Positions 37,150 through 49,930 are shown, counted from the stretch's first letter. The stretch is DNA of 64,000 nucleotides from an uncultured Alphaproteobacteria bacterium (GCA_902537235.1 CACBAO010000005.1:19951-83950), one strand, 5' to 3'. The notes: generated by a model not told the origin, from the letters alone. A program made the numbers and translations.

Positions 37150-37226
37150 GTTTTGATTATACTTTATTAAATAAAGATAAACCCTATAGGACTTCGGTCT
37201 GATTTTATGATAGTCTTATTCCTAGC

Positions 37227-37303
37227 GGTGACGTAGCTCAGCTGGATAGAGCACCAGATTTCGGCTCTGGGGGTCGAGGGTTCGAATCCTTCCGTCATCG
37301 CCA
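37227..37303 (+). tRNA. tRNA-Arg (anticodon UCG), CCA encoded
   Basis: Folded by hand. Acceptor GGTGACG/CGTCATC, D arm GCTC-AGCTGGATA-GAGC (A20 present) and anticodon arm CCAGA-TTTCGGC-TCTGG (anticodon TCG at 37261-37263). Variable loop GGGTC, T arm GAGGG-TTCGAAT-CCTTC, discriminator G, then CCA. Confidence 0.85.
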
Positions 37304-38827
37304 TTAATTTTGTCCATTAATTAAGTCTAGATTAATTCCAAAATCAGTTTCTATTTGTCTTAATATCTCTGGGCTTAGGTGGCTCCTAAAATTGCTAGAA
37401 AGAATTTTTTCAAGGTTTTTTCTGGCTTCGTTTAACATTGTATTATCTTTTTCTTTCATCCATAACTCTGGCGATAACCTTTTTGCCGATTTTGGATAAT
37501 CAAAATCAGTACTCATTCTTTTCAAGGTATCAGACTCTCCTAAAAAGTGCTTGTCCCCCTCAATTACTTGCCTTATGGACTCTAAATCATCGGTTAGCGC
37601 TGGTACATCTATGCTACGCATTGAACTCAAAATTGATCCACATAGTTCATTATCGAGAACGAAAGATTCAAGGGATACTCCCATTAGACCGCTGAGCATA
37701 CCGCTTGCTTGTGTGACTAAATTTGCTCCTGACTGTGCTGAGGTTGCTATTGAGAGAGCTTTCTCATAACCTGCTTGGTAATCGGGAATATTGCTGTCTG
37801 ATGCACCAGCGATCGATGAGTTTGGGATCTTGTAGTAATGCATCATTTGACTAAGCAAAGAGGTGGTTTGTGCTTGCTCTCCGCTTCCTCCAGCCATTCC
37901 GCCTGTCCTTAGATCGGTTACCATAGCTCTTGGACCACAGATAACTTTTGAATCTGGATCTAAAAGCCAACATATTAATAACCCTGATAATGCCTCAGCA
38001 ATCGTTTGACAGACTGATCCAACAATGCTGACAGGGCTGGAAGCGCCTCGCTGTCCAAACACGTTTGCCATAACAGGAATTCCATATTTGACACTCTCTC
38101 TCATAACTTCGCACGCTTCAGTATCTAACCTAAGTGGAGGAATTATGAAATTGATATTTAAAGATAAAAACGGTGATCGCCTAAAAGCGTCTTCCCCACC
38201 AGCTATAAGATAGCAGACTTCGGCCAAGGGTTTTACGGTATTAGAGTTGGCGACGCTTGTCATGACATGTTTGTTGGTAGCAGATAAAGATATAACAGCT
38301 GTATAGATATCCATTAGGTGTGGGTCTGCAATATCTGTCAGTACCAAGGGCCTTGAAAAAAAACTCAGATTATCTAATCTATCAACAACTCGGGCTGCGT
38401 TTAAGAGATCTTTTCCTAAAGAGGGGCGATAAATTTTTTTTTCATAGTCCAAAATAAGCGGAGCAGCACCCCCTGTTCCAAAATAAACATTTCCTTTTGA
38501 CAGATCTAAGTAGTTCTCTAGATTTTGTTGATGCAATAAAATTTTGTTGTTGAACGATTTTAGGCACTGATCAATTAGCCCTAATCCAAAGCAGAACCGA
38601 TTATTTTTTCTAATAATCGTTTTATTATCAATAAAACTTTCTAAAAATTTCGGAAGTTGCTCAAAGCCTATTTCAGACAGAATGTGCTGCACCCCCGCAT
38701 GGATCTCGGCCTTGTCTTTTTCTGATAGTGTGTTGAGACTGTTGCTAAACACGCCTAAATTTTTAGAGTTATCAAATTCAATGCTCTCTTGAGCTCCACG
38801 GGAACGTGATCCTCTTCGTCGACTCAT
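37304..38827 (-). CDS. MttB-superfamily methyltransferase, non-pyrrolysine type (quaternary-amine/betaine methyltransferase-like)
   Basis: 507 aa with an Arg-rich N-terminus MSRRRGSRSRG. YFGTGGAAPLILD, ARVVDRLDN and NINFIIPPLRLDTEACE fit COG5598. The frame is uninterrupted, with no in-frame TAG. Confidence 0.85.
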   Translation of the reverse strand: MSRRRGSRSRGAQESIEFDNSKNLGVFSNSLNTLSEKDKAEIHAGVQHILSEIGFEQLPKFLESFIDNKTIIRKNNRFCFGLGLIDQCLKSFNNKILLHQQNLENYLDLSKGNVYFGTGGAAPLILDYEKKIYRPSLGKDLLNAARVVDRLDNLSFFSRPLVLTDIADPHLMDIYTAVISLSATNKHVMTSVANSNTVKPLAEVCYLIAGGEDAFRRSPFLSLNINFIIPPLRLDTEACEVMRESVKYGIPVMANVFGQRGASSPVSIVGSVCQTIAEALSGLLICWLLDPDSKVICGPRAMVTDLRTGGMAGGSGEQAQTTSLLSQMMHYYKIPNSSIAGASDSNIPDYQAGYEKALSIATSAQSGANLVTQASGMLSGLMGVSLESFVLDNELCGSILSSMRSIDVPALTDDLESIRQVIEGDKHFLGESDTLKRMSTDFDYPKSAKRLSPELWMKEKDNTMLNEARKNLEKILSSNFRSHLSPEILRQIETDFGINLDLINGQN

Positions 38828-38857: not shown

Positions 38858-39064
38858 TTAATCGACTTTTATATTAATGGCAGATTTACGGCCATCTTCG
38901 GAAGTCTCTATTTCAAAGGAAACCTCTTGGTCCTCATCAAGTCTTTTTAGACCTGCGGCCTGCACAGCGGTGATATGTACAAAAACGTCCTTGTCTTCAC
39001 CCTCTGGCGCTATGAAACCGTAGCCCTTTTTTTGGTTGAACCATTTTACGATACCTTTAGTCAT
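38858..39064 (-). CDS. cspA: cold-shock protein (CspA family)
   Basis: [16 protein letters not shown] (RNP1) and VFVHITAV (RNP2) are present. Length is 68 aa, and AAGGAG lies upstream of the start. Confidence 0.95.
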
Positions 39065-39296
39065 ACTATATCTCCTTTGACCGTCTATATTTCCGATCTT
39101 TTAGTATGTATCTTAAGCAATAATCTCGATACATCAGATAGAATAGTAAAGCATAACCTATCCTCAAAAAATCGTTGATGATAGCGATAGACTAATTACA
39201 CCGTCTTTTCAATTTATTTTTTGTTATTTTAGTTTTTTTGTTAAAGTCAGTGATATCTCAGTAATACTTGAGAATTTTAAATTAAAGGAAATTACC

Positions 39297-40049
39297 ATGG
39301 TAAATAAAGTTGCGTGGATAACTGGGGCAGGGTCAGGTATTGGCGAGGCATCCGCTATTAAGCTTTCAGAAGAGGGTTTCATTGTTGTACTTTCTGGGAG
39401 AACTAAGGAAGCTCTTGAATCAGTGGCCTCAAAATGTAGAGGACAGGCTTCAGTAGAGCCTCTTGATGTCTCCAATTCGGAAGATGTGGAAGGTGTGTTT
39501 AAAAATATCATCTCAGACTACGGTCGAATAGATGTATTAGTTGCTAGTGCAGGTTTAAACGCGAAGAACAGAAACTGGCATAATGTGTCAGATGAAGATT
39601 TCGATCAAATTATAAAAATTGATTTGAACGGTGTGTTTTATACAAATCGCTTAGTGTTAGAAAAAATGAAGGAGCAAAGAGAGGGTTTAATTATAAATAT
39701 CTCATCTTGGGCAGGAAAATATGTGACTACACTTACAGGACCCGCATATACAGCAGCTAAACACGGGGTAAATGCTTTAACCGAAGGCATAAACATGGAG
39801 GCAGGTCACTTTGGTGTTAGAGCTTGTGCTATTTGCCCTGGTGAAGTGGCGACACCAATTCTTGATAAAAGGCCTATACCCGTCTCCAAAGAAGATAAGG
39901 AAAAAATGGTTCAACCGGAAGACTGTGCGGAGACTGTTGCATTTCTAGCTAAGCTACCTCCAAGAGTATGTATAAATGAGATTACTATTAGTCCTACTTG
40001 GAATAGACTTTATGTAGCTGGCCTTACAGATCAAATTCCAAAAAAATAA
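39297..40049 (+). CDS. SDR family oxidoreductase
   Basis: ITGAGSGIGEA, NISS and YTAAKHG (catalytic Tyr-x3-Lys) are present. Confidence 0.9.
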   Translation: MVNKVAWITGAGSGIGEASAIKLSEEGFIVVLSGRTKEALESVASKCRGQASVEPLDVSNSEDVEGVFKNIISDYGRIDVLVASAGLNAKNRNWHNVSDEDFDQIIKIDLNGVFYTNRLVLEKMKEQREGLIINISSWAGKYVTTLTGPAYTAAKHGVNALTEGINMEAGHFGVRACAICPGEVATPILDKRPIPVSKEDKEKMVQPEDCAETVAFLAKLPPRVCINEITISPTWNRLYVAGLTDQIPKK

Positions 40050-40056
40050 AATATAA

Positions 40057-40974
40057 ATGACCCAATTCTCACATCTGGCCCAGTCTATTTTCTGGATGCT
40101 AGGGGCTATGATCTCCTTCACTCTCATGGCAGTTTCAGGAAGAGAACTGTTTTCGTCTTTAGATACCTTTGAGATTATGCTCTATCGGTCATTAGTAGGG
40201 ATTTTTTTAGTCTTATCTTTTGGAAAATATTTTAATACTCTTAAGCAAATACGGGTGGAGAAGCTTTCGCTTCATTTCATACGAAACATAAGTCATTTTG
40301 GTGGTCAAAATTTTTGGTTTTATGCTATCGCATTGATACCTTTTTCTCAACTATTCGCCTTCGAGTTTTCAACCCCTCTTTTTATAGTGTTTCTAGCTCC
40401 TATTTTTTTAGGCGAGCTGTTAACAAAAGAAAAGCTTTTCGCAGCATCCATTGGTTTTGTGGGTATTATGTTAGTAGCAAGGCCCGATTTAAATGTTGTA
40501 AGCTGGGCCTTAGTTGCAGCATTTCTTCTACCTATTTGTTTTGCAGCAACAGCTATTGCAACGAAGTTACTGACCCGTACATTTAGTTTAACCTGTATAC
40601 TCTTTTGGTTGGTTATTATGCAAACGGTATTTAGTCTCATCTGCGCAGGGTATGATCTCACCATTAAAATACCAACAAAGTCCGATTTACCATTCTTACT
40701 TGTAGTTTCTGTTACAGGGTTGACTGCGCATCTATGCATGACAAAAGCATTCAGTTTGGCGCCAGTTTCTGTAGTAATGCCGATTGATTTCGTAAGGTTA
40801 CCTCTGATTTCTGTGGTAGGTTACCTGTTTTATAATGAAGTGCTAACATGGTACATAGTTTTGGGATCTGTATTAGTATTTCTCGGGAACTATATAAATA
40901 TAAAAGCAGAGGAAAGGGGTCAAAGTTATGAAAGAGTTTCAGGATCTGAAAGACAGTATCAGGACAGTGCCTGA
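40057..40974 (+). CDS. DMT superfamily (EamA-like) transporter
   Basis: About 10 TM segments in two EamA-like halves. The 3' end overlaps apt by 47 nt. Confidence 0.8.
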   Translation: MTQFSHLAQSIFWMLGAMISFTLMAVSGRELFSSLDTFEIMLYRSLVGIFLVLSFGKYFNTLKQIRVEKLSLHFIRNISHFGGQNFWFYAIALIPFSQLFAFEFSTPLFIVFLAPIFLGELLTKEKLFAASIGFVGIMLVARPDLNVVSWALVAAFLLPICFAATAIATKLLTRTFSLTCILFWLVIMQTVFSLICAGYDLTIKIPTKSDLPFLLVVSVTGLTAHLCMTKAFSLAPVSVVMPIDFVRLPLISVVGYLFYNEVLTWYIVLGSVLVFLGNYINIKAEERGQSYERVSGSERQYQDSA

Positions 40975-41461
40975 TTATCCAGTAAAGGGTGTTCAATTCA
41001 GGGATATTACAACCCTTCTTCAAAATAGAGATCTCTTTAAAAAGATGATTGATGGAATGACAAAACAATGGGCCGAAACACCTATTGATGCAATTTTAAG
41101 TATCGAGTCCAGAGGGTTTATAATGGCTGGAGCGCTGGCATTTAACCTTAATGCCGCTTTCGTTCCTTTGAGAAAACCACAAAAGTTACCCTTTCACACA
41201 TACAATGTTTCATATGAGCTAGAATATGGTGCTACGGATATGCATATACATAAAGATGCTTTAGATAATCACAAAAATCTTTTAATAATTGATGATCTCC
41301 TTGCTACAGGTGGGACAGTAATTGCGTCACTTGATTTAATCAGAAAATTTGAAGCCAAAAATATAGTTGGTGCAGGTTTCTTGGTAAACCTCCCTGCTTT
41401 AGGTGGATTTAAAAAGTTAGAAAATTTAGGAATTAAATCCAAATACTTAGTTGAATTTTAA
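40928..41461 (+). CDS. apt: adenine phosphoribosyltransferase
   Basis: IRTVPDYPVKGVQFRDITTLL and the PRPP motif LLIIDDLLATGGT are present. Confidence 0.9.
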   Translation: MKEFQDLKDSIRTVPDYPVKGVQFRDITTLLQNRDLFKKMIDGMTKQWAETPIDAILSIESRGFIMAGALAFNLNAAFVPLRKPQKLPFHTYNVSYELEYGATDMHIHKDALDNHKNLLIIDDLLATGGTVIASLDLIRKFEAKNIVGAGFLVNLPALGGFKKLENLGIKSKYLVEF

Positions 41462-41537
41462 AAAATCAATTCAAATTTGCAACGAATCGCTATTTAATTA
41501 TCATAGAGCTCATTAAAAACACCCGGGGGATATTGTC

Positions 41538-44500
41538 ATGGATAATAGCGATGCAATTTTAGCAATGATGGACGCTTTTGATAATGGAGGCCAAGGGTTG
41601 GCCGTTTGGGACCCGAAAGATAATTTGACTTCCTTTAATATCAATTACAAAAAAATATTTTTTAGTAATATGCATTTCAGCCCTGAGGTAGGGCTAAATT
41701 TTGGAAAGGCTTATGCTGACGCCGCGAAAAACCCAAAATTCACGCTTGATCCGGAAAATACAAAGCAAAGAATTGCACAAAGAGAACAAGCTAGGTTAGA
41801 CAAAAGGCCAATTGAAAGTGAATATGAAGTTGAACCCGGCAAATGGCTTCATGTCAAGGAAACAGCCTCTAATGACGGCCACATGATTACCGTTTTGACG
41901 GATGTAACTGCAAGAAAAACTAGGGAGATCATGCAATCGAAGCTTGCCGATGCTATTGATGCAATACCCTCACATGTAATGTTCTGGGATGAAAAAGAAA
42001 AGCTGGTTAAGGCTAATAAATTGGCAGTAAAAGAAAACTTAGAATACGAGGTGGAGTTGCGTGAAGGTATGAGTTACGCTGAGTTTCTGTCTTCTCAGTT
42101 CGAAAAAGGGGTTTACTCTACTCCCCCAGATTTTTCAATTAAGAAATTAGTTAAAAAACGTTTAGATGAAAGAAAAGAATTAACTTCGAAATCCAGAAAA
42201 GTACACTACAAAAATGGTAGAACGTTAATCAGAACTGAAAATAAGTTAGACCAAGGGGGCATTCTTACCATCCTAAATGATGTCACGGAGCTTGAGCAAA
42301 TAGAGGCAAAAGAAAAGCTGTTATCTTCTTCACTTGAAAATATGTCGTACGCTGTTGCTTTATGGGACAAAGACAATAGGCTTGTGAGGTTCAATGAAGC
42401 TCTTCGAAGAAATAATGAAAAGTTTGGAATGAAGACTGAGGTTGGAATTTCATTTGAAGATGCTTTGGAGCGCCAGGTAAAGGGTTCTTTTTATAACATT
42501 GCTGAAAGTGATAAGAAAGACTGGATTAATAAGGGATTAAAATACTGGAAAAATTTGAAAGGAGAACATACGGTAACCTATCAGCATCCAAATGGACAGC
42601 ATTCAATGGTTACCGATAAACGCCTCGATGATGGAGGAACTTTACAGATAATTTCAGATGTCACTTACTTAAAGAAACAAGAAAAAGAGTTAATCCGATT
42701 AAGAGAAGGGATCGATCAAATGCCCGATGGAATTGCTTTTTGGGATAACAAAGAGCAACTTATCTATGCAAATAAATCGATGCAAGACTGGCAAAATAAT
42801 GTGGGTTTCGAAATGCAGCCTGGGGCCAAAAAAAAGGACCTTGTCTCTAATCTAATTAGTAAGAAGATAATTAGAACCGAAAAGTCTGCTACTGAATTAG
42901 AAGAGTATTTTAAGTCAGTAAAAGTATCCGCTGCGCAACGTTCAAAATCAACTGACATACAGTTTTTTCTGGGGGATCAATTGCAGACTACAGCGGTAAC
43001 AGAAATAGATTTGAAAAATGGGGATTCAATACAGAGATTCTCTGATGTCTCGAGAGACAGAAAGAGAGAGGCAGAAATCAAGCGGGTATACGATGCATTA
43101 GAAAACTTTCCGACCGGTGCAATGCTTTGGGATAAAGAACACAAACTTATATTTGCAAATAGAGCTGCTCGAGAAATTCAAGAAAATAATGGTCTGAAAA
43201 TGTCTGTAGGTATCAGCCGGATAGATATGGTCAAAAATAGTATAAAGAACAATATTTTTGCTTTGCCGAATGATATAAAAACAGTTGAAAAATATGTTGA
43301 ATATTCTGTTCAAATGATGAGGGAGAATGAACAAGGTTTTGTGTTTTCTTTTAGCAACGAAAAGAATGCATTTTTAGGTACGAACATGCTGTTGGAAACT
43401 GGTGATTATATTCAAATTTATAATGATATTACCGAAATCAAACAAAAAGAAGGGGAGCTTACTCGTCTGAGAGACGGTATTGATCAAATGCAGTCTGGAG
43501 TAGCATTCTGGAATTCTGATGATGAGCTAATATACGCAAATAAGGTTGTGAGAGATTTCCAAGAAGCTATTGATTTTAAGATGGAGCCTGGCGTTAAGCG
43601 TATTGATATGGTTCGAAATAGTATGACAAAAGGCTCAACCAAGTATGAATTTGATAATGCAGAACAACAGCATAATGATTATGTAAGAAAAATGGATGAA
43701 GCTGGCTCAACAGGCATTAGTTACGAAGTCGAGATGGAAGTGGATGGTGAAAGAGGTTTTATGTTGAGTACAGGTTTTAGGTTGGATACTGGCGATTGGA
43801 TACAGACCTTTAATAATATCACTGATATAAAAAATAAGGATCTCGAATTGAATAGGCTTAGAGAAAGTGTAGATCAAATGCCTGATGGTTTGATGGTCTG
43901 GGGCAAAGAGGGGAAACTTGTATATGCAAATAAAATTGTTCGTGATGTCCAAGCCGCTATCGGTTTTGACATAAAACCTGGTGTTAATAGGCTAGACATG
44001 CTGAAAAATAATGTTGAGAAAGGCCTGTCCGATTATGGTATGTCAGTCGAGGAATATCAAAAACAGTTTTTAGCTAAGCTAAATGACGCGGGCGACGCAG
44101 GTATAAGTAGTGAGTTAAAAATGCAGTTTGAAGGTGAAGAGAGCAGTTTTATCTCAACAGCTTTCAAATTAAAAAACGGTGACTGGATACAGACTTTAAA
44201 AAATATCAGTGATATAAAGAAAAGAGAGGAAGAGCTTAAAAGAGTAACTGACGCAATAGAAATTATTCCAAACGGAATTGTAATCTGGGATAGCGAGCAT
44301 TCTTTGACTTTCTTTAATAAATTCGCTGCTAAAATAATGGAAGAGTGGGGCTGTCCACTTAAATTGGGTCTAATGAGAAAAGAACTGGTAAATAAATTGA
44401 TTTCCAGTGGCATAATAAACCTTCCTGCTGGTCAGAATGTTGATAGTTATATTGAAAACTCTTTATCAGCAATGAAGGATTCTGAGAATGGTTATAATAT

Positions 44501-46170
44501 TGAAACATCAAATTATGGTACTCACCTTTTGGTAAATAATGTTGCCTTGGAAACAGGAGAATATGTTGGTGTTTATTCGGACATCACAGAGATAAAAAAT
44601 AAACAGGGTGAGCTAGACAGATTAATGCTTGGCATGAACCAGGTGAAAGGTTTTGGCCTAGCGGCATGGTCAAAAGATAACAAGCTCATATATGCTAATG
44701 ATTTTATGAAAGAGTTTTCGAGGAAAGTTGGCTTCGATCTGGTTGCAGGTGTTAAGAGGTTAGACTTTATAAAAAGCCAATTTGCAAAAAGAAGTTTGTC
44801 CGTTGAGCATAAAACGCCAGAGGCCTATTTAAATTGGTTCAATAATGAAATGGATAAAAGTGAAGATGGGTTTACTTTTGAGTTTGAGGCATTTGATGGA
44901 GAAAATAGGTTTCATAACCAACAAAGTGCTCGGCGAGTAGAGAATGGAGACTATTTCCAGATGATTACCGATATCACACAAGTGAAACAGCAGCAAAAAG
45001 AACTTGAAAGGTTGTATGATGGGATCGATAAAATGGGTGACCCAGTTATAATATGGGATTCCGAAAATGTTCTGGTATTTTGTAACGAAGCAGCAAAGCT
45101 GAGGAATAAAAATGAGTGGGATTATGATATAAAGCCTGGGGTTAGACGAGCGGATATGTTAAACCATTTTCTTAAAAAAGGATTAACCATTCCCAATGGG
45201 CTAAGCGTAGAGGAACATATGGGAATACAAAAGGGCAGAATGCTAGAGCGAGAAGAGGGTATTACTGTCGAAACCAGAATGGGTGAAACTACATTTATTT
45301 CAACTTCAAAGATGCTTGGTGATGGTGGTTTTATTCAAAATTTCACGGATATAACTCAGCAAAAAAATCATGAGGAGCAAATAGCGCTCCAAAAGGAAAG
45401 ATATTCTCGTGTTTTAGGAGACCTAAATTCAATTGTTTTTGACTCAAATTTAGAAACTAGAGAAGTAACCTATGAAGTACCTGAAAACCTTAACAGTGAG
45501 TGGGGTGATTTAGCTCAAGCTACTACCACAATTGAGGCAACCGAAGATTTCTATTCTTTTGTAAGAGAAGACTATAGAGATGCTTACAAGAAGGCATTTA
45601 AAGAACATGTTAAGGGCGAGACTGATGCTGTAAGGATAGAACATCTGAATAAGACACAAGATGGGAGCGAAATTTGGTATGAAACTAGAGCCAAAGCTGT
45701 CTTCGAGGAGGGAAGAGCAGTAAGGATAATTGGCTTGGTCGAGAATATTGATGCAAGAAAGGCTCTGGAACTTAAAGTAAAAAAAGCGCAACAGCAAGTT
45801 TATGATGCTATAAATAATATTGAAGGCGGAGTTATCCTTTGGAGTGAGGATGATAAGGTAATTTTAATAAATAGTTATATGAAAAAATTGACTGGAGAAG
45901 ATCTTGAAGAAGGGATTCACTATAGAGATCTAATTGCAATTTTTATTAAAAAGGGCCTGTTACAGCTAGATGATCAGGATCCAGAAGTATGGATTGAAGA
46001 ACGCCTGAATGCAAGACGGAAAGTAACTGGATTTGAGGAACAGACAATGCCTCCAATGAAAAATGGACGCTCGTTTAAGATGTCGGGTCGCAGACTTCCT
46101 GATAAAACTTTTATTCAGATCTTTACTGACGTGACTGATCTTAAAACAAGAGAGATTGAATTAGAGAGGA
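41538..46170 (+). repeat. protein-level tandem array of 12 PAS-like sensor modules (period ~126-136 aa)
   Basis: Module starts lie near 41538, 41946, 42324, 42702, 43087, 43470, 43860, 44247, 44625, 45015, 45393 and 45791. Eleven share ...G-I-D-x-M-P-x-G-[IV]-x-[FLI]-W-D-x5-L-[IV]-[YF]-A-N ... G-D-[WY]-I-Q-x3-[DN]-I-[TS]-[DE]-I-K. The module at 45393 is a different, classical PAS/PAC type. Confidence 0.8.
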
Positions 46171-47744
46171 TTGTCAACGAACTAAATGCAGCAAAAGAGC
46201 AAGCAGATGGTGCAAATAAAGCAAAAAGTCAATTTTTGGCAAATATGAGTCATGAACTTAGGACACCTCTAAATGCAGTGATCGGTTTAACAGAGATGCT
46301 AAAAGAAGATGCTGAAGACGACGGCAATGACGAGTACTTAGAGCCTTTAGAGCGTATTCATGGTGCTAGTAAACATTTACTTAATTTGATCAACGATGTT
46401 TTAGATTTATCTAAAATTGAGGCGGGAAAGGTTGAGCTTTATAATGAAAGCTTTTCGTTGCCTTCGTTACTTGAGGAGGTTGCAGATACTTCTAGAACTT
46501 TGGTGGAGCAAAAAAACAATAAATTATTGTTAAATGTCGACTCTGGCATCACTTTTATAAATGCAGATATTACGCGCACAAAACAAATCGTTCTAAATCT
46601 GATTTCTAATGCTGCTAAATTTTGCGAGAATGGAAATATATCTATTAATGTTAAATCTAAGAAAAGTCCTAAAACGAGACTCATTCAGATCGATGTCCAA
46701 GACTCCGGTATTGGTATGACACAAGACCAAATTGACAAATTGTTTCATGCTTTTACTCAAGCCGATGCTTCTACCACTAGAAAGTATGGAGGAACTGGTC
46801 TAGGTCTCACCATCGTACAGAATCTTGCAAGGTTGATGGGTGGAGATGTTTCGGTAAAAAGCGAATTAGGTAAGGGTACAACGTTTACCGTTACAATTCA
46901 GGATATTGAAGTCGAGAAAACCTCCGGTGTTGATGCCGAGGATCTAGAGAGCCTTAACCGGCAGACGGCTTTAATATCTAAGAAAAATGGAAAAAGCACA
47001 ATTTTGGTAATAGATGATGACCCAACAATCAGAGACCTGATGACAAGGCACCTGGAAAAGAATAATTTTAGTGTGCTTCAAGCTCTTGATGGAGCTCAGG
47101 GCATTAAAATGGCGAGGGAATACAGGCCCGATGCGATTACCTTGGATATTTTAATGCCCGAAATGGATGGATGGTCCGTCTTACGAACGTTGAAAGCTGA
47201 CAAGGAAGTTTCTCACATACCTGTTGTGATGGCTTCTATAATTGATGAAAAGAAGAAAGGATTTTCTCTAGGGGCAGCTGACTACCTATCCAAGCCTGTA
47301 GAAAGGGACAGATTAATAGGCTCTATAAGTAAATTGCTTGGCAGTAAATCAGGAAAAGTCATTTTGATTGTAGAAGACAATGACGATTTGAGGTTTACTG
47401 TAAAAGAAGCACTTACTAGTGCAGATAATATAGTGTTGGAAGCAGGTAACGGAAAAGAGGCTCTTGATGTATTGAACGACAAGACAAACAAAAGCCCAGA
47501 CCTAATTTTACTTGATTTAATGATGCCTAAAATGAATGGATTTGAGTTCTTGGAAGCCTATCGTACTCAATTTGAAAAACAGGTTCCAGTAATTGTAATT
47601 ACAGGAGCCGATTTGGATGAAAATGACAAAAAATTCTTGTCTTCAGAGACTAGCAGAGTTTTAGAAAAGTCTTCTATGAGTGACACTGGAATAGCTGATC
47701 ATTTAGTAAAAACAATTGAATCCGTTGCAGGAGTAGGCAAATGA
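41538..47744 (+). CDS. cytoplasmic hybrid sensor histidine kinase: 12 PAS-like modules, HisKA, HATPase_c and two receiver domains
   Basis: H-box SHELRTPLN (His codon 46251-46253), N/G boxes (NLISNAAKF, DSGIGM, GGTGLGL). REC1 has Asp at 47145-47147 and REC2 has Asp at 47514-47516. No hydrophobic TM segment was seen. Confidence 0.9.
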   Translation: MDNSDAILAMMDAFDNGGQGLAVWDPKDNLTSFNINYKKIFFSNMHFSPEVGLNFGKAYADAAKNPKFTLDPENTKQRIAQREQARLDKRPIESEYEVEPGKWLHVKETASNDGHMITVLTDVTARKTREIMQSKLADAIDAIPSHVMFWDEKEKLVKANKLAVKENLEYEVELREGMSYAEFLSSQFEKGVYSTPPDFSIKKLVKKRLDERKELTSKSRKVHYKNGRTLIRTENKLDQGGILTILNDVTELEQIEAKEKLLSSSLENMSYAVALWDKDNRLVRFNEALRRNNEKFGMKTEVGISFEDALERQVKGSFYNIAESDKKDWINKGLKYWKNLKGEHTVTYQHPNGQHSMVTDKRLDDGGTLQIISDVTYLKKQEKELIRLREGIDQMPDGIAFWDNKEQLIYANKSMQDWQNNVGFEMQPGAKKKDLVSNLISKKIIRTEKSATELEEYFKSVKVSAAQRSKSTDIQFFLGDQLQTTAVTEIDLKNGDSIQRFSDVSRDRKREAEIKRVYDALENFPTGAMLWDKEHKLIFANRAAREIQENNGLKMSVGISRIDMVKNSIKNNIFALPNDIKTVEKYVEYSVQMMRENEQGFVFSFSNEKNAFLGTNMLLETGDYIQIYNDITEIKQKEGELTRLRDGIDQMQSGVAFWNSDDELIYANKVVRDFQEAIDFKMEPGVKRIDMVRNSMTKGSTKYEFDNAEQQHNDYVRKMDEAGSTGISYEVEMEVDGERGFMLSTGFRLDTGDWIQTFNNITDIKNKDLELNRLRESVDQMPDGLMVWGKEGKLVYANKIVRDVQAAIGFDIKPGVNRLDMLKNNVEKGLSDYGMSVEEYQKQFLAKLNDAGDAGISSELKMQFEGEESSFISTAFKLKNGDWIQTLKNISDIKKREEELKRVTDAIEIIPNGIVIWDSEHSLTFFNKFAAKIMEEWGCPLKLGLMRKELVNKLISSGIINLPAGQNVDSYIENSLSAMKDSENGYNIETSNYGTHLLVNNVALETGEYVGVYSDITEIKNKQGELDRLMLGMNQVKGFGLAAWSKDNKLIYANDFMKEFSRKVGFDLVAGVKRLDFIKSQFAKRSLSVEHKTPEAYLNWFNNEMDKSEDGFTFEFEAFDGENRFHNQQSARRVENGDYFQMITDITQVKQQQKELERLYDGIDKMGDPVIIWDSENVLVFCNEAAKLRNKNEWDYDIKPGVRRADMLNHFLKKGLTIPNGLSVEEHMGIQKGRMLEREEGITVETRMGETTFISTSKMLGDGGFIQNFTDITQQKNHEEQIALQKERYSRVLGDLNSIVFDSNLETREVTYEVPENLNSEWGDLAQATTTIEATEDFYSFVREDYRDAYKKAFKEHVKGETDAVRIEHLNKTQDGSEIWYETRAKAVFEEGRAVRIIGLVENIDARKALELKVKKAQQQVYDAINNIEGGVILWSEDDKVILINSYMKKLTGEDLEEGIHYRDLIAIFIKKGLLQLDDQDPEVWIEERLNARRKVTGFEEQTMPPMKNGRSFKMSGRRLPDKTFIQIFTDVTDLKTREIELERIVNELNAAKEQADGANKAKSQFLANMSHELRTPLNAVIGLTEMLKEDAEDDGNDEYLEPLERIHGASKHLLNLINDVLDLSKIEAGKVELYNESFSLPSLLEEVADTSRTLVEQKNNKLLLNVDSGITFINADITRTKQIVLNLISNAAKFCENGNISINVKSKKSPKTRLIQIDVQDSGIGMTQDQIDKLFHAFTQADASTTRKYGGTGLGLTIVQNLARLMGGDVSVKSELGKGTTFTVTIQDIEVEKTSGVDAEDLESLNRQTALISKKNGKSTILVIDDDPTIRDLMTRHLEKNNFSVLQALDGAQGIKMAREYRPDAITLDILMPEMDGWSVLRTLKADKEVSHIPVVMASIIDEKKKGFSLGAADYLSKPVERDRLIGSISKLLGSKSGKVILIVEDNDDLRFTVKEALTSADNIVLEAGNGKEALDVLNDKTNKSPDLILLDLMMPKMNGFEFLEAYRTQFEKQVPVIVITGADLDENDKKFLSSETSRVLEKSSMSDTGIADHLVKTIESVAGVGK

Positions 47745-48112
47745 CAAAAATCCTATATGTAGAGGATAATCCTGATAATGTTTATATGCTTACTCGAAGG
47801 CTCAAGAAAAAAGGTTTTGAGCTAATAATCGCTGGAGACGGTCAGGAGGGAATCGATAAAGCTGTAGAAGAGAATCCAGACCTTATTTTAATGGACTTAA
47901 GTTTGCCAACTATGGATGGTTGGACTGCTACTGCCAAAATTAAGGAGATTGAAGAGGTGAAAGATATTCCGATTATAGCACTATCTGCTCATGCCATGCC
48001 TGAACACCGCGATAGAGCTCTTAAAGCTGGATGCAGTGACTATGATACAAAGCCAGTGGATATTAAAAGGCTTCTTAGCAAAATTGGCCAATATATAGAG
48101 TTACCGGGATAA
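47741..48112 (+). CDS. single-domain response regulator (CheY-like receiver)
   Basis: ILYVEDNPDN, DLILMDLSLPTMDGW, LSAHA and KP are present. The ATGA overlaps the kinase stop. Confidence 0.9.
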   Translation: MTKILYVEDNPDNVYMLTRRLKKKGFELIIAGDGQEGIDKAVEENPDLILMDLSLPTMDGWTATAKIKEIEEVKDIPIIALSAHAMPEHRDRALKAGCSDYDTKPVDIKRLLSKIGQYIELPG

Positions 48113-48113
48113 A

Positions 48114-49163
48114 ATGAATTCTTACAATCAAAAAATACTTATTGTTGATGATATCGAAGATAATAGATTTACACTCGAAAGGAGGTTATCTAGAAACGGC
48201 TACACCGCCATAAGCCAAGCTGACTGTGGGAAAAAGGCCCTTGAATTAGTGAAAGAAGAACGCTTTGACCTGATACTACTCGACTTGATGATGCCGGATA
48301 TTAGTGGTCTCGATGTGTTGAAAACACTAAAAGCTGATCCTAAGAATAGAAGTATACCTGTTGTAATGGTTACAGCGGCGGATGAGATAGAGACAACGGC
48401 AGATTGTATTAGTAATGGTGCTGAGGATTATATAACAAAACCAATTAATGCTACCTTGCTAAAAGCAAGAGTTTCTGCTTGTCTAGAAAAGAAAAGGTTC
48501 AGAGATAGTGAGGAGCACTATTTAAGCAAAGTTGAAGCTGATAAAAAAAGGTCACAATCATTCTTAAAGCAGATATTGCCAGAAAAAATAGCTGAGGAAC
48601 TTAACTCATCCGGACTAGTTAGACCAAGAAAATATGAAGATGTAGCAATACTTGTTTGTGATTTAGTTGGTTTCACGGCTTTCTGCGAGTCTAATCCTCC
48701 TGAAAATGTGGTAGAAAATCTTCAAGAGATTTTTGAAAAGTTTGAAAGTGAAATCGAAAGATTTGGACTAGAAAAAATTAAAACTGTAGGTGATGCCATA
48801 CTGGCGACTGGAGGGTTAACCAGAAGTTTAGAGAACCAAGTGCTTTCAGCATCGAAGTGTGCAATAAATTTGAAAAAGATAGCGATTGAGTCGGATCCTA
48901 ATTGGGCAATCCATATAGGTATTCATTCTGGACCATTAGTGGCGGGACTAATAGGAAAAAAGAGTTTTCAGTTTGATGTTCTAGGTGGTAACGTGAATAC
49001 AGCATTTAATATATGTGATAGAACGGAACCTAATGAGATTTTGATCTCTAGTGAGGCATGGATGTCGGTGAGAAGCGAAGTTGAGGTCCAATCAAAAGGG
49101 TTAATGAAACTTAAGAGTGATAACCAGATAGAGATTTTAGAACTTCTCAGTATAAATAATTAA
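48114..49163 (+). CDS. response regulator with a class III adenylate/guanylate cyclase output domain (atypical catalytic motif)
   Basis: REC shows ILIVDDIEDN and DLILLDLMMPDISG. The cyclase shows VAILVCDLVGFTAF and IKTVGDAILA. FDVLGGNVNTAFNI has Asn (49008-49010) where canonical enzymes have the transition-state Arg. Confidence 0.85.
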   Translation: MNSYNQKILIVDDIEDNRFTLERRLSRNGYTAISQADCGKKALELVKEERFDLILLDLMMPDISGLDVLKTLKADPKNRSIPVVMVTAADEIETTADCISNGAEDYITKPINATLLKARVSACLEKKRFRDSEEHYLSKVEADKKRSQSFLKQILPEKIAEELNSSGLVRPRKYEDVAILVCDLVGFTAFCESNPPENVVENLQEIFEKFESEIERFGLEKIKTVGDAILATGGLTRSLENQVLSASKCAINLKKIAIESDPNWAIHIGIHSGPLVAGLIGKKSFQFDVLGGNVNTAFNICDRTEPNEILISSEAWMSVRSEVEVQSKGLMKLKSDNQIEILELLSINN

Positions 49164-49168
49164 AGGAG

Positions 49169-49483
49169 ATGAAAATGGCGGTATCAATGCAAGTGGCTTA
49201 TCCGGTCAATGATGATACAAACTTCGACCTTGACTACTATATAAAAGAGCATTTGGCTATTATTAAGGAAAACTGGTCAGAGCATATTCAGCAAATGATT
49301 GTTACAAAAGGAACATCAGGAGGTAAGGATGTTCCTTCCCCTTATTATGCAATTGCCACTGTAATTTTTGAAAACGCTGAAGAAATGAGAGCTGCAATGA
49401 AAAAGGGTGGCCCAGTATTCAAAGATATAGGCAACTACTATAATACCAATCCAATCATGATGTTGGGTGAAGTTGTTGGATAA
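49169..49483 (+). CDS. EthD-family (dimeric alpha/beta-barrel) protein
   Basis: About 100 aa. VAYPVNDDTNFDLDYYIKEHLAIIKE...PYYAIATVIFENAEEMRAAM...DIGNYYNTNPIMMLGEVV matches the EthD (TIGR02118-like) pattern. Confidence 0.8.
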   Translation: MKMAVSMQVAYPVNDDTNFDLDYYIKEHLAIIKENWSEHIQQMIVTKGTSGGKDVPSPYYAIATVIFENAEEMRAAMKKGGPVFKDIGNYYNTNPIMMLGEVVG

Positions 49484-49521
49484 TATCCATTTATTTTCTT
49501 AATTGAGCTCTCTATTTAATC

Positions 49522-49752
49522 TTAAATGTTAATCTTGTAGATACTCCTTAGAGCCCTCGCTTTTATCTCGGCTTTGCTAAAACCTATATCGGCTAAGTCT
49601 CTGTTAGACATCTTTTCAAGTTCTCTAATGGTCTTTAGATACTCTCTTCTTTTTTTTACTCTGTCCAATGTTGCGAAGTAACTTCCAATGAATATTTGGC
49701 TTACTTTTTCCATAAATGTAAGATTGGTTGTTGTTATTTTTGTTACTGCCAT
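49522..49752 (-). CDS. DUF1127 small protein
   Basis: 76 aa. The C-terminal EKMSNRDLADIGFSKAEI matches the DUF1127 core (L-x-D-x-x-L-x-D-I-G-x-x-R/K). AAGGAGG lies 5 nt upstream of the ATG. Confidence 0.7.
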   Translation of the reverse strand: MAVTKITTTNLTFMEKVSQIFIGSYFATLDRVKKRREYLKTIRELEKMSNRDLADIGFSKAEIKARALRSIYKINI

Positions 49753-49767
49753 CTTGGCCTCCTTAAT

Positions 49768-49829
49768 TAGTTTAACGATGAACTATATGTTAAAGTTATG
49801 ACTCATATATTTAGTTTAAGGCTAAACTA
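49768..49829. promoter_or_regulatory. two copies of the palindrome TAGTT-N8-AACTA upstream of the DUF1127 gene
   Basis: Read directly: TAGTTtaacgatgAACTA (49768-49785) and TAGTTTAaggcTAAACTA (49812-49829, 7-bp arms). Their centres are 44 bp apart, within the 178-bp divergent intergenic region. Confidence 0.3.
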
Positions 49830-49930
49830 CTATTGATATTTCTAGAAGGCACCTATCGAATAAATGCATAGCCTAAAGTTAAATAGTGATTTGTTTTATC
49901 AAAATGTTAATATTTTCGAAAAAATGAAGT

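What the first reader, a model, noticed from the sequence alone, without database searches (positions are those of the whole stretch)
41538..46170. Cytoplasmic hybrid kinase with twelve tandem PAS-like modules in a streamlined genome
Seen:
- A single 2068-aa ORF.
- Upstream of the H-box (His codon 46251-46253) the protein is built from 12 consecutive ~126-136-aa modules.
- Eleven share one skeleton. The start is L-x-R-L-x-x-G-I-D-x-M-P-x-G-[IV]-x-[FLI]-W-D-x5-L-[IV]-[YF]-A-N. The end is G-D-[WY]-I-Q-x3-[DN]-I-[TS]-[DE]-I-K-x3-E-L.
- The module at 45393-45790 is a different PAS/PAC type.
- I saw no transmembrane segment.
- The modules are clearly diverged at the nucleotide level, so this is an old amplification and not an assembly stutter.
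Established: PAS domains are ligand- or cofactor-binding sensor modules, and most kinases carry one to a few. The repeated skeleton resembles the PAS_7-type fold common in alphaproteobacterial kinases (from memory, not searched).
Inference: the gene spends about 6.2 kb, roughly a tenth of this otherwise compact window, on one sensor. That suggests either a multi-input integrator (each module with its own pocket) or a rigid signalling rod. The variable middle third of each module (e.g. ...PGVKRIDMVRNSM... versus ...PGAKKKDLVSNLI...) is where any ligand specificity would diverge.
Basis: partly seen in the sequence, partly recalled or inferred. Interest (0 to 1): 0.65.

Follow-up and report, generated by a model that had tools for sequence, protein, structure and literature searches.

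The report
Hypervariable twelve-PAS sensor kinase controlling a cyclase
A 2068-residue cytoplasmic sensor kinase of uncultured low-GC marine bacteria really does carry twelve PAS sensor modules in a row, which is not a record; the surprise is that this array differs completely in module number and sequence between near-identical genomes while the kinase and its neighbours stay conserved.

Summary
ORF 41538-47744 encodes a soluble hybrid histidine kinase with 11 PAS_7 modules, one PAS_3 module, HisKA (His1572), HATPase_c and two receivers. The modules are old copies (14-45% aa identity).

The architecture is ordinary in kind. Histidine kinases with up to 19 PAS domains are published, and tandem PAS_7 arrays are widespread.

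Three findings are new here.
1. Modules are joined by a fixed-length helical junction. The DIT Asp to the next Trp is 28 residues in 424 of 553 measured gaps. The last DIT to the phospho-His is 41 residues in 65 of 68 proteins.
2. The gene sits in a conserved operon (kinase, single receiver, receiver-adenylate-cyclase-like protein) in two alphaproteobacterial lineages.
3. The PAS array is a recombining, hypervariable cassette locus.
 - It has 4-13 PAS_7 modules, drawn from 24 module types in subfamily A, in at least 13 arrangements.
 - One close relative lacks exactly module 9.
 - Genomes with flank dS of 0.09-0.4 carry arrays only 29-73% identical.
 - Arrangements are shared between species whose flanks are saturated at synonymous sites.
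 - Within an arrangement dN/dS is about 0.07.

Best reading: a serial multi-input PAS chain on a helical spine, probably controlling cAMP, with its composition kept polymorphic. Ligands are unknown.

The parts
41538..47744 (+). Poly-PAS hybrid histidine kinase gene, 2068 aa
41538..42686 (+). PAS_7 modules M1-M3 (aa 1-131, 132-257, 258-383). These are the N-terminal anchor types B-A-G, present in nearly all subfamily-A arrays.
42687..44999 (+). PAS_7 modules M4-M9 (aa 384-512, 513-639, 640-769, 770-898, 899-1024, 1025-1154). This is the variable core, types J-L-D-D-M-H. M9 (44610-44999) is the module deleted in the AG-899-B02 relative.
45000..45377 (+). PAS_7 module M10 (aa 1155-1280), anchor type E
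45378..45794 (+). Module M11 (aa 1281-1419), PAS_3-type PAS domain
   Evidence: Pfam PAS_3 at aa 1335-1400; PAS fold in the AlphaFold2 model
45795..46157 (+). PAS_7 module M12 (aa 1420-1540), anchor type F. It occurs as two or more deeply diverged allelic forms.
46128..46457 (+). Signalling helix plus DHp. A continuous predicted helix runs from the last DIT (Asp1531) through His1572 (codon 46251-46253). HisKA covers aa 1562-1630.
46566..46901 (+). HATPase_c catalytic domain (aa 1677-1788)
47001..47324 (+). Receiver domain 1 (aa 1822-1929)
47355..47711 (+). Receiver domain 2 (about aa 1940-2058; boundaries set by eye)
   Evidence: Pfam reports two Response_reg stretches; sequence
47741..48112 (+). 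Single-domain response regulator, 123 aa. Its start overlaps the kinase stop codon (ATGA).
   Evidence: conserved in all loci
48114..49163 (+). Receiver plus class III nucleotidyl cyclase, 349 aa. It starts 1 nt after the previous stop. This is the probable output enzyme.
   Evidence: Pfam Response_reg and Guanylate_cyc; best solved relatives of the cyclase domain are bacterial adenylate cyclases; conserved next to the kinase in both subfamilies
40928..41461 (+). Adenine phosphoribosyltransferase-like gene. It marks the 5' edge of the zone of deep allelic divergence.
   Evidence: Pfam Pribosyltran; dS 0.5-2.5 against flank dS 0.2-0.4

Best explanation
**What it is**

A soluble, presumably homodimeric, hybrid histidine kinase. 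Its sensor is a chain of twelve PAS domains: 11 PAS_7 and one PAS_3.

**How the chain is built**
- Each module is a PAS core. Its last strand ends in the D-I-T motif and runs into a helix.
- That helix continues without a break into the N-terminal cap of the next module.
- The spacing is locked at 28 residues from the DIT Asp to the next Trp.
- The last module feeds a continuous helix. It places the phospho-accepting His1572 exactly 41 residues after the last DIT.

**Inferred mechanism**
- The chain works as a serial allosteric line. The state of any module biases the shared helical spine and so the kinase/phosphatase balance.
- The conserved junction elements are the wire.
- The type-specific middle of each module (helices C-F, strands G/H) is the input site. 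The ligand could be a small molecule, a cofactor or a partner protein. It is unknown.

**Inferred output**
- Phosphoryl groups go to the two internal receivers, to the co-transcribed single receiver, and to the receiver-cyclase.
- The cyclase has the Lys/Asp pair typical of adenylate cyclases, so the output is probably cAMP.

**Population level**
- The array is a cassette locus. Modules are deleted, duplicated and exchanged at the conserved junction sequence.
- Deeply diverged arrangements co-exist among very close genomes and are shared across species. Which inputs are wired to the cyclase is therefore a maintained polymorphism.

**Shown:** architecture, PAS folds (predicted), junction length lock, operon conservation, copy-number variation, recombination mosaics, divergence peak, purifying selection.

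**Inferred:** dimeric coiled coil, direction of phosphotransfer, cAMP as product, ligand binding, selective maintenance of the polymorphism.
For: **Architecture**
- Domains from Pfam; module definition.
- AlphaFold2 model of M6-M7: pLDDT 94.7, two PAS folds, one continuous 18-residue linker helix.
- Foldseek top hits are tandem-PAS sensors. DosP has TM 0.68; FixL PAS-A/B, NifL, Brucella LOV-PAS-HK and MmoS follow.
- AlphaFold2 model of M11-M12-DHp: a 63-residue continuous helix from the DIT through the His. Hits are FixL, DosP, the LOV-PAS-HK and YF1.

**Junction lock**
- DIT Asp to next Trp is 28 residues in 424 of 553 measured module-to-module gaps. Of the 553, 512 are direct PAS_7-PAS_7 junctions and 41 span the PAS_3 module.
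- Minor classes are 29, 32, 35 and 39 residues.
- The PAS core itself varies from 94 to 104 residues.
- Last DIT to His is 41 residues in 65 of 68 proteins. One protein has 34, a heptad less.
- Linker hydrophobic residues sit at positions 1, 4, 11, 14, 18 and 21.

**Modules are functional units**
- dN/dS of the array is 0.06-0.09, against 0.04-0.06 for the transmitter.
- The middle region is 79-81% conserved between orthologous modules of species with saturated flank dS.

**Output**
- The kinase, receiver and receiver-cyclase order is conserved in 11 complete Rhodobacterales-type loci.
- It is also conserved in SAR116-type loci. Those add a cNMP-binding protein and an MBL/Apyc1-like hydrolase.
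- The cyclase domain is closest to solved adenylate cyclases, E about 1e-26.

**Cassette behaviour**
- Relatives carry 4-13 PAS_7 modules.
- There is an exact 130-aa deletion of M9, with its junction at the DIT-x-x-K codons.
- Subfamily A has 24 module types in at least 13 arrangements.
- The breakpoint between the window and L004 lies at the M3/M4 linker.
- Flank dS is 0.19-0.44. In contrast, array pS is 0.73-0.82, transmitter dS is about 1 and APRT dS is 1.7-2.5.
- L004 versus L010: flank dS 0.09, array blocks 29-73% identical.
- Arrangements are shared with L008 and L009, whose flanks are saturated.
- The same pattern holds in the second subfamily.
Against: - No ligand, cofactor motif or partner has been identified.
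- No solved structure is close in sequence. The profile search found only MmoS, at E=7e-6, across a junction.
- The structure predictions are monomers, so the dimeric coiled coil is assumed by analogy.
- No Hpt domain is seen in the protein, and I did not scan the rest of the genome. The route from kinase to receiver-cyclase is therefore uncertain.
- Modules can be lost in nature (M9), so no single core module is indispensable.
- Synonymous distances inside the array rest on codon alignments at 30-60% aa identity and are noisy. The robust part of the peak is APRT and the transmitter.
- Sharing of arrangements across species could be lateral allele transfer rather than long-term balancing selection.
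- Flank relatedness was measured on about 6 kb only, in single-cell and metagenome-assembled genomes.
Confidence: 0.6

Rival explanations
1. Only the kinase-proximal modules sense anything: M10, the PAS_3 module M11 and M12, which are present in nearly every array. The variable core M4-M9 would then be a structural extension, an oligomerisation element or a scaffold for partner proteins. Its number and identity would modulate gain or localisation rather than add inputs.
For: - The frame B-A-(G)...E-(PAS_3)-F is constant while the core varies from 0 to 6 modules.
- Natural deletion of M9 in a relative about 98% identical leaves the ORF intact.
- In known multi-PAS proteins some PAS domains serve only dimerisation (general knowledge; PpsR paper listed).
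Against: - Core modules are under purifying selection as strong as the catalytic part.
- Their middle regions are 79-81% conserved between orthologues across saturated species distances.
- The anchor modules M11 and M12 are themselves hypervariable between alleles, at 42-84% identity.
Confidence: 0.3
2. The extreme divergence of the array reflects weak constraint, that is fast neutral drift of a repetitive and dispensable region. It would not reflect maintained alleles or selection.
For: - The sensor is far more diverged than the transmitter and the flanks.
- Module number is labile.
Against: - dN/dS is 0.06-0.09 within arrangements, the same as the transmitter.
- The ORF is intact in all complete loci.
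- Synonymous divergence is also elevated in the non-repetitive neighbours APRT and DHp-CA. Relaxed protein constraint cannot produce that.
- Near-identical arrays (dS 0.07-0.16) occur in genomes with flank dS of 0.2. Unrelated arrays occur in genomes with flank dS of 0.09. These are discrete classes, not a clock-like blur.
Confidence: 0.07
3. The polymorphism marks a recognition system under negative frequency-dependent selection, and the array is the specificity determinant. It could be a pherotype-like self/non-self signal. It could also be a cytoplasmic sensor of phage or other invading molecules, coupled to cyclic-nucleotide signalling.
For: - The pattern is a hypervariable sensor, a conserved transmitter, and allele classes shared across species. 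It resembles the ComQXPA pherotype polymorphism (PMC4408185).
- The output is a cyclic-nucleotide cyclase with weak similarity to Pycsar cyclases, E=1.5e-9.
- SAR116-type loci carry an Apyc1-like hydrolase and a cNMP-binding protein next to the kinase.
Against: - No co-varying signal-peptide or modification gene is present. The 76-nt upstream spacer has no room for one.
- The sensor is cytoplasmic.
- PADLOC gives only generic receiver- and cyclase-level hits, far weaker than Pfam Guanylate_cyc at 5e-31.
- The locus sits among core metabolic genes with conserved synteny. The cyclase is 93-98% conserved in all but the most distant locus (86% in L009).
Confidence: 0.15
4. The long ORF, its module number or the mosaics are assembly or gene-calling artefacts of single-cell genomes.
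For: The relatives are single-cell amplified genomes or MAGs. One contig (L014) is binned under an implausible taxon.
Against: - Modules are too diverged in DNA to be collapsed or expanded by an assembler (34-59% identity; no tandem repeat).
- The same arrangements recur in many independent SAGs, MAGs and metagenome contigs from NCBI, ENA and JGI.
- All complete loci keep one uninterrupted frame.
Confidence: 0.02

Closest known systems
FixL-type and LOV-PAS-HK/YF1-type cytoplasmic PAS histidine kinases (Bradyrhizobium FixL PAS-A/PAS-B, Brucella LOV-PAS-HK, engineered YF1)
   Same: - In-line PAS, helix, PAS, helix, DHp design.
- A DIT motif at the end of the PAS core, feeding a continuous signalling helix to the phospho-His.
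- These are the best structural matches of both models.
   Different: - Those proteins have one or two PAS domains with known cofactors (heme, FMN). This one has twelve and no recognisable cofactor motif.
- Sequence identity is only 10-19%.
- The PAS_7 modules have no close solved relative.
Published multi-PAS histidine kinases, e.g. the cyanobacterial kinase with 19 PAS domains (UniProt A0A1Z4MZL8, cited in Xing et al. 2023, PMC10468136)
   Same: - Many tandem PAS domains ahead of one transmitter.
- They show that the count here is within the known range.
   Different: - Those occur in large genomes, and that paper finds PAS number scales with genome size. This one is in a 38%-GC compact genome.
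- It is made of one sub-family (PAS_7) with a length-locked junction.
- No population-level cassette variation has been described for those proteins, as far as my searches show.
Wider set of tandem PAS_7 proteins in metagenomes and genomes
   Same: - The same di-module profile matches 21,940 cluster representatives (892 at E<=1e-30).
- The top 150 carry 2-13 detectable modules at a period of about 125-130 aa, in kinases and GGDEF/EAL proteins.
   Different: - Most carry 3-6 modules.
- The family studied here is defined by the B-A-G...E-(PAS_3)-F frame, two receivers and the receiver/receiver-cyclase operon.
- I did not test whether the other tandem PAS_7 proteins are hypervariable.
Pherotype-polymorphic sensor kinases (Bacillus ComP in ComQXPA; Staphylococcus AgrC)
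   Same: - The sensor part of the kinase is highly polymorphic within a species, while the transmitter and the response regulator are conserved.
- Alleles form discrete classes (ComQXPA: PMC4408185; AgrC from my own knowledge).
   Different: - Those sensors are membrane domains that read an extracellular peptide. The peptide is encoded next door and co-varies with the sensor.
- Here the sensor is a cytoplasmic PAS chain, no signal gene is adjacent, and variation includes module number and order.
Response-regulator-controlled class III adenylate cyclases
   Same: - A receiver domain fused to a Guanylate_cyc-family catalytic domain.
- Nearest solved catalytic domains are bacterial adenylate cyclases.
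- The motifs KIKTVGDA (Lys) and FDVLGG (Asp) are the adenine-specifying pair. I read these by eye and interpret them from general knowledge of class III cyclases.
   Different: No experimental product is known. The partner kinase is an unusually large poly-PAS protein.

Membership tests
PAS fold, Pfam PAS_7 (PF12860) | Profile match above the curated cut-off | tested here: met
   259.9 bits against a cut-off of 27, with 10 stretches. My own module HMM finds 11.
PAS fold, Pfam PAS_7 (PF12860) | Five-stranded antiparallel sheet flanked by helices | tested here: met
   AlphaFold2 M6-M7 model, pLDDT 94.7, with strand and helix order typical of PAS. Foldseek probability is 1.00 to the tandem PAS regions of DosP, FixL, NifL and MmoS. 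This is a prediction, not an experiment.
PAS fold, Pfam PAS_7 (PF12860) | Bound ligand or cofactor | not testable with these tools
   No heme-His, LOV-Cys or flavin signature seen by eye. Needs biochemistry.
PAS_3 (PF08447), module M11 | Profile match above the cut-off | tested here: met
   36.7 bits against a cut-off of 25.6, aa 1335-1400. PAS fold in the model.
HisKA-class hybrid histidine kinase | H-box His in a DHp domain, plus an HATPase_c domain | tested here: met
   HisKA E=9.7e-22, HATPase_c E=5.2e-28. SHELRTP motif with His1572.
HisKA-class hybrid histidine kinase | C-terminal receiver with the acidic pocket and phospho-Asp | tested here: met
   Two Response_reg stretches, E=1.4e-44. 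DD/ED, D, S/T and K positions are visible in both (by eye).
HisKA-class hybrid histidine kinase | Hpt domain for a phosphorelay | tested here: not met
   No PF01627 hit in the protein, in the two downstream receiver proteins or in the upstream APRT-like protein, nor in five further flanking proteins scanned at E<=0.01. The rest of the genome was not scanned.
Named kinase equivalogs (BarA, LuxQ, TorS, ArcB, RcsC, NahK) | NCBIfam score above the equivalog cut-off | tested here: not met
   The best is BarA, 310 bits against a cut-off of 890. All hits cover the transmitter only.
Pherotype-type polymorphic sensor kinase loci (ComQXPA, Agr) | Hypervariable sensor with a conserved transmitter and regulator | tested here: met
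   Between different arrangements, PAS modules are 30-75% identical (M12 up to 84%) against DHp 89-100% and REC1 87-99%.
Pherotype-type polymorphic sensor kinase loci (ComQXPA, Agr) | Adjacent co-varying signal-precursor or processing genes; membrane sensor | tested here: not met
   The upstream gene is a phosphoribosyltransferase, and the spacer is 76 nt. There is no transmembrane segment.
Cyclic-nucleotide anti-phage systems (Pycsar and similar) | Dedicated cyclase plus an effector gene, recognised by defence-system models | tested here: not met
   PycC hit of only 1.5e-9, against Guanylate_cyc at 5e-31. No effector model hit.
Class III adenylate cyclase (downstream gene) | Catalytic domain match, metal Asp residues, Lys/Asp substrate pair | tested here: inconclusive
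   Pfam Guanylate_cyc 5.1e-31. The best solved relatives are adenylate cyclases. The residue assignment was made by eye only.

The most novel reading that the evidence does not exclude
The PAS array is a long-lived, combinatorially shuffled polymorphism. A small library of module types is recombined at a conserved, length-locked junction, so co-occurring cells of one population wire different sets of cytoplasmic inputs to the same cAMP output. Arrangements persist across speciation, either as trans-specific balancing selection or as recurrent allele exchange. This would be a sub-genic 'flexible island' in a core signalling gene of streamlined ocean bacteria, comparable in logic to pherotype or immune-receptor diversity. 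It would also be a natural experiment showing that PAS modules can be added or removed in register without breaking signal transmission.
Probability: 0.35. Interest if true: 0.8.

Novelty: new variant of a known kind. Interest (0 to 1): 0.62.

Why it matters
**For signalling**
- Nature has already built a deletion, insertion and swap series of in-line PAS modules with an invariant junction.
- That series is the material needed to test how signals travel through multi-PAS chains. It also gives rules for engineering modular sensors.

**For marine microbiology**
- Streamlined pelagic bacteria are thought to have minimal regulation.
- Here one of their few large regulators is the most variable gene in an otherwise conserved, core-gene region.
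- This suggests that what co-existing cells sense, rather than what they metabolise, can be a maintained axis of micro-diversity.

**For annotation**
- These proteins are named only 'PAS-domain containing protein'.
- The conserved link to a receiver-cyclase predicts a cAMP pathway in two abundant, uncultured lineages.

Tried and rejected
- **Single-sequence PDB search of M6-M7.** It gave only spurious G-alpha hits at E>=0.02. The profile search found only MmoS.
- **Mixed alignment of both subfamilies (A1).** It was too diverse for the locus scan, so I used subfamily A only (A2). Subfamily B genomes were therefore sampled only through two look-ups.
- **Exact look-up of the window's own protein.** It found no record.
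- **Tandem Repeats Finder.** No array in the gene.
- **Rfam.** Nothing in 39000-50500.
- **Promoter and terminator scan.** No more sites than in shuffles. A TTGCAA-16-TATCAT site at 41477-41504 is only a candidate.
- **PADLOC.** Only generic domain-level hits, so I rejected the defence-system reading as a classification.
They match no module.
- **First dN/dS run.** It timed out.
- **Some rows are not used.** APRT versus L003, and the methyltransferase rows with dN>0.9, are codon-registration artefacts of gapped HSPs. I recomputed them ungapped.
- **Relaxed-constraint explanation.** Rejected on dN/dS and on the elevated dS of neighbouring non-repeat sequence.
- **Intragenic gene conversion as the cause of divergence.** Considered unlikely. 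Paralogous modules share only 34-59% DNA identity, and the peak extends into non-repeat DNA.
- **Literature searches.** I found no description of this family or of hypervariable PAS arrays.

Full report
**1. The observation**

The window has a single ORF at 41538..47744 (+) of 2068 aa. It has an ATG start preceded by a GGGGG run.

Pfam finds these domains:
- PAS_7 (PF12860), E=2.9e-78, in 10 stretches.
- PAS_3 at aa 1335-1400.
- HisKA at 1562-1630.
- HATPase_c at 1677-1788.
- Two receiver stretches.

Splitting the protein at the recurring D/N-[IV]-[ST] motif gives twelve modules of 121-139 aa. An HMM built from them recovers eleven PAS_7-type modules. The gap at aa 1281-1419 holds the PAS_3 module.

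- Paralogous modules are 14-45% identical in protein and 34-59% in codon-aligned DNA.
- Tandem Repeats Finder reports nothing in the gene.
- The highest 19-residue hydropathy is 1.14, so there is no membrane segment.
As literal patterns they fit no module, while a relaxed core fits all eleven.

**2. Folds and junctions**

An AlphaFold2 model of M6-M7, built on an alignment of 32 di-modules, has pLDDT 94.7 and pTM 0.76. It shows two canonical PAS cores joined by one continuous 18-residue helix. Foldseek places it with tandem-PAS sensors: DosP (TM 0.68), FixL PAS-A/B, NifL, Brucella LOV-PAS-HK and MmoS.

A model of M11-M12-DHp has pLDDT 79. It shows a PAS_3-type PAS, a 22-residue linker helix and the last PAS_7. 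A single 63-residue helix then runs from the DIT motif through the phospho-His into DHp helix 1. Its matches are FixL, DosP, the LOV-PAS-HK and YF1. By sequence there is no close solved relative.

Across 72 family members (627 modules):
- The distance from the DIT Asp to the invariant Trp of the next module is exactly 28 residues in 424 of 553 measured gaps. Of these, 512 are direct PAS_7-PAS_7 junctions and 41 span the PAS_3 module.
- The minor classes are 29 (22 junctions), 39 (48, that is 28+11), 32 (8), 35 (3, that is 28+7) and 25 (5).
- The PAS core itself varies from 94 to 104 residues.
- The last DIT to the His is 41 residues in 65 of 68 proteins. One case has 34, a heptad shorter.
- Linker hydrophobic residues recur at positions 1, 4, 11, 14, 18 and 21.
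- Column conservation is highest in the N-cap helix, strands A/B, the G-x-x-R-x-D motif and the H/I hairpin with DIT-x-x-K. It is lowest in the middle.

The junction is therefore the constrained element. This is what is expected if the helices form a register-sensitive signalling spine, as in characterised PAS kinases. That last link rests on established knowledge of DIT and coiled-coil linkers and is an inference for this protein.

**3. Operon and output**

The kinase stop overlaps the start of a 123-aa single receiver (47741-48112). A 349-aa receiver plus Guanylate_cyc protein follows 1 nt later, at 48114-49163.

- The same three genes, in the same order, are present in all complete Rhodobacterales-type loci.
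- They are also present in two SAR116-type loci. There the kinase is additionally preceded by a 112-aa cNMP-binding protein and an MBL-fold Apyc1-like hydrolase.
- The cyclase domain's nearest solved relatives are bacterial adenylate cyclases.
- It carries the Lys (KIKTVGDA) and Asp (FDVLGG) that specify ATP in class III cyclases. I read these by eye.
- I found no Hpt domain in the kinase or in the neighbours I scanned.
- NCBIfam equivalogs (BarA, LuxQ, TorS and others) match only the transmitter, far below their cut-offs.

**4. The family and its distribution**

A search with the sensor region returned 72 proteins. They fall into two subfamilies:
- **Subfamily A** is named Paracoccaceae or Rhodobacteraceae where named. 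It always has the PAS_3 module before the last PAS_7.
- **Subfamily B** is named Puniceispirillales or Alphaproteobacteria. It has no PAS_3 module.

Protein lengths fall in steps of about 128 aa. The PAS_7 count is 4-13.

A scan of one genome per GTDB species found 14 loci. All are from uncultured marine single-cell genomes (AG-...) or Mediterranean MAGs. All are syntenic: SDR, EamA, APRT, kinase, receiver, receiver-cyclase, orf104, methyltransferase.

A profile search of 1.84 billion cluster representatives shows that tandem PAS_7 arrays are a large class:
- 21,940 hits, of which 892 are at E<=1e-30.
- The best 150 carry 2-13 detectable modules, most often 4-5.
- One 3308-aa protein has at least 13.

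Histidine kinases with up to 19 PAS domains are published, and PAS number scales with genome size (PMC10468136). So twelve PAS domains is the upper tail of a known kind, notable mainly for sitting in a compact 38%-GC genome.

**5. The array is a hypervariable cassette locus**

*(a) Exact module loss.* The relative AG-899-B02 is about 98% identical module by module. It lacks precisely M9. The 130-aa in-frame deletion joins ...DITEIK to KQQQKEL..., and the DNA junction is GAGATAAAA|CAGCAGCAA. The deletion thus lies between the equivalent DIT-x-x-K codons of M8 and M9.

*(b) Module types.* I clustered subfamily-A modules at 50% identity or more. This gives 24 types and at least 13 arrangements on a common frame, B-A-G-[core]-E-(PAS_3)-F. 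Examples:
- Window: BAGJLDDMHEF
- BAGJLDDM-EF
- BAG-L-DMHEF
- BAGJLDCDCEF
- BAGJCDCEF
- BAGDCDKEF
- BAGNCIHEF
- BAGPKDOHEF
- BACIHEF

*(c) Mosaics.*
- L004 is 96-98% identical to the window in M1-M3, then 31-68%.
- DNA identity falls from 92-100% to 52-68% within aa 384-400, which is the M3/M4 linker.
- M12 occurs as forms 83-100% or 42-50% identical to the window's. These forms are independent of what lies upstream.

*(d) Contrast with the background.*

| Region, against the window | Measure | Value |
|---|---|---|
| Flanking proteins (L004-L007, L010-L013, L015) | aa identity | mostly 92-98% |
| DHp / CA / REC1 (L004-L014) | aa identity | 89-96% / 73-90% / 87-97% |
| PAS modules (L004-L015) | aa identity | 30-75% (M12 up to 84%) |
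| Five concatenated flank genes | dS | 0.19-0.44 |
| APRT | dS | 1.7-2.5 (0.54 in L004) |
| PAS array | pS / dN | 0.73-0.82 (random level) / 0.2-0.6 |
| DHp-CA | dS | about 1 (1.7 in L006) |
| Single receiver (REC123) | dS | 0.3-0.8 |
| Receiver-cyclase | dS | 0.3-0.6 |

The aa-identity rows for DHp/CA/REC1 and PAS modules cover L004-L015. The dS rows exclude L008 and L009, whose flanks are saturated.

This is a divergence peak of about 7 kb centred on the array.

*(e) Discrete classes.*
- L002 and L003 share the window's array (array dS 0.07-0.16), although their flank dS is 0.21-0.23.
- L004 and L010 have a flank dS of only 0.09. Their arrays are nevertheless 29-73% identical per 128-aa block, and transmitter dS is 0.92.

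*(f) Sharing across species.* L008 and L009 have flanks saturated against every other genome. They carry the same arrangements as L010-L013 (BAGDCDKEF, 86% aa) and L005 (BAGNCIHEF, 82% aa).

*(g) Purifying selection.* Within an arrangement, dN/dS is 0.06-0.09 in the closest pairs and 0.03-0.16 over all pairs. The transmitter gives 0.03-0.06. The 'variable' middle of the modules is 79-81% conserved between orthologous modules of those distant species. The junction parts are 85-92% conserved.

*(h) Second lineage.* Subfamily B behaves the same way. L016 (11 modules) and L017 (6 modules) have flanks 84-97% identical (five of seven genes at 92% or more) and transmitters 90% identical. Their sensor is 40-61% identical.

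**6. Interpretation**

- The array is not an inert spacer. It is under purifying selection and shows type-specific conservation.
- It is not a fixed-length ruler. Module number ranges from 4 to 13, and M9 has been lost in nature.
- The best-supported picture is a serial chain. A conserved, length-locked helical junction transmits state from module to module and on to the DHp. The type-specific interior of each PAS supplies the inputs.
- Whole modules can be removed or exchanged because recombination at the conserved junction preserves the register.
- The output is most likely cAMP, through the receiver-cyclase.

The population pattern has three parts: discrete and deeply diverged arrangements among very close genomes, the same arrangements in distant species, and a peak of synonymous divergence that decays into the neighbours. 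This is the signature either of long-term balancing selection or of repeated allele exchange between species. I cannot separate the two.

The pattern resembles pherotype loci such as ComQXPA (PMC4408185). It lacks their defining signal gene and membrane sensor, so I do not file it there. A defence-system reading is not supported by PADLOC.

**7. Caveats**

- Structures are monomer predictions.
- Ligands are unknown.
- The phosphotransfer route is inferred from gene order.
- Synonymous distances inside the array rest on alignments at low identity.
- Relatedness of genomes was measured on about 6 kb of flanks in SAGs and MAGs.
- Module types depend on a single-linkage threshold.
- Literature searches were limited to the open-access library. 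They found no description of this family.

**8. Verdict**

- Observation: confirmed.
- Interpretation: partly supported.
- Architecture: a new member of a known kind.
- The length-locked junction, the cassette-type hypervariability and the cyclase operon together make it a new variant worth follow-up.

Noticed in passing
window 40928-41461: The APRT-like gene just upstream of the kinase is itself deeply polymorphic. Against the window, dS is 0.5-2.5 and dN is up to 0.17, while flank dS is 0.2-0.4. Its alleles do not always travel with the kinase allele: L003 has a 98% identical kinase but an 86% identical APRT.
   Followed up: partly
P0004 / P0005 versus window aa 1-2068: Two 2067-2072-aa homologues are mosaics. 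M1-M5 are 41-63% identical to the window. M6 through REC2 are 71-99% identical, which over M10-DHp is closer than in the overall nearer homologue P0002. This points to an intragenic recombination tract.
   Followed up: partly
L014 (SGYQ01000030.1): A 6.6-kb contig labelled 'Burkholderiaceae bacterium MED-G174' carries the Rhodobacterales-type EamA-APRT-kinase synteny, with 87% and 86% identical flank proteins. It is probably a MAG binning contaminant.
   Followed up: no
L016 109-6000 and L017 85-5977: In the SAR116-type loci the kinase is preceded by a 112-aa cNMP-binding protein and an MBL-fold hydrolase hitting the Anti-Pycsar Apyc1 family. Further upstream is a Guanylate_cyc-alpha/beta-hydrolase fusion. 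Together these form a fuller cyclic-nucleotide module than in the window.
   Followed up: partly
subfamily B proteins such as P0041-P0054: Two specific junctions per protein are 39 residues long instead of 28, that is 28+11 or three helical turns (48 cases). This is a conserved alternative register at fixed array positions.
   Followed up: no
window 42001-46000: GC skew (0.26-0.30) and AT skew (0.15) peak over the PAS array, compared with 0.19 or less for GC skew in most of the window. The likely cause is the purine-rich codons of a Lys/Glu/Asp/Asn-rich protein, but I did not test this.
   Followed up: no
window 49169-49483: A 104-aa ORF directly after the cyclase gene has no Pfam family. It is nevertheless 88-98% conserved and syntenic in 10 of the 11 complete Rhodobacterales-type loci; no match was found in L009. 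It may belong to the operon.
   Followed up: no
window 32648-38827: Upstream lie FdsB/FdsA-like NAD-dependent formate dehydrogenase subunits and, on the minus strand, an MttB-family methyltransferase. Downstream is an Opp/Dpp-type peptide ABC transporter. The hypervariable kinase therefore sits among core metabolic genes.
   Followed up: no
P0075: A 3308-aa metagenomic protein carries at least 13 detectable PAS_7-type modules. Gaps between them suggest more, perhaps about 20. It is much larger than the window's protein.
   Followed up: no
window 40928-40974 and 47741-47744: Genes are tightly packed. EamA and APRT overlap by 47 nt, the kinase and the receiver overlap by 4 nt (ATGA), and the receiver and the cyclase are 1 nt apart.
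   Followed up: no
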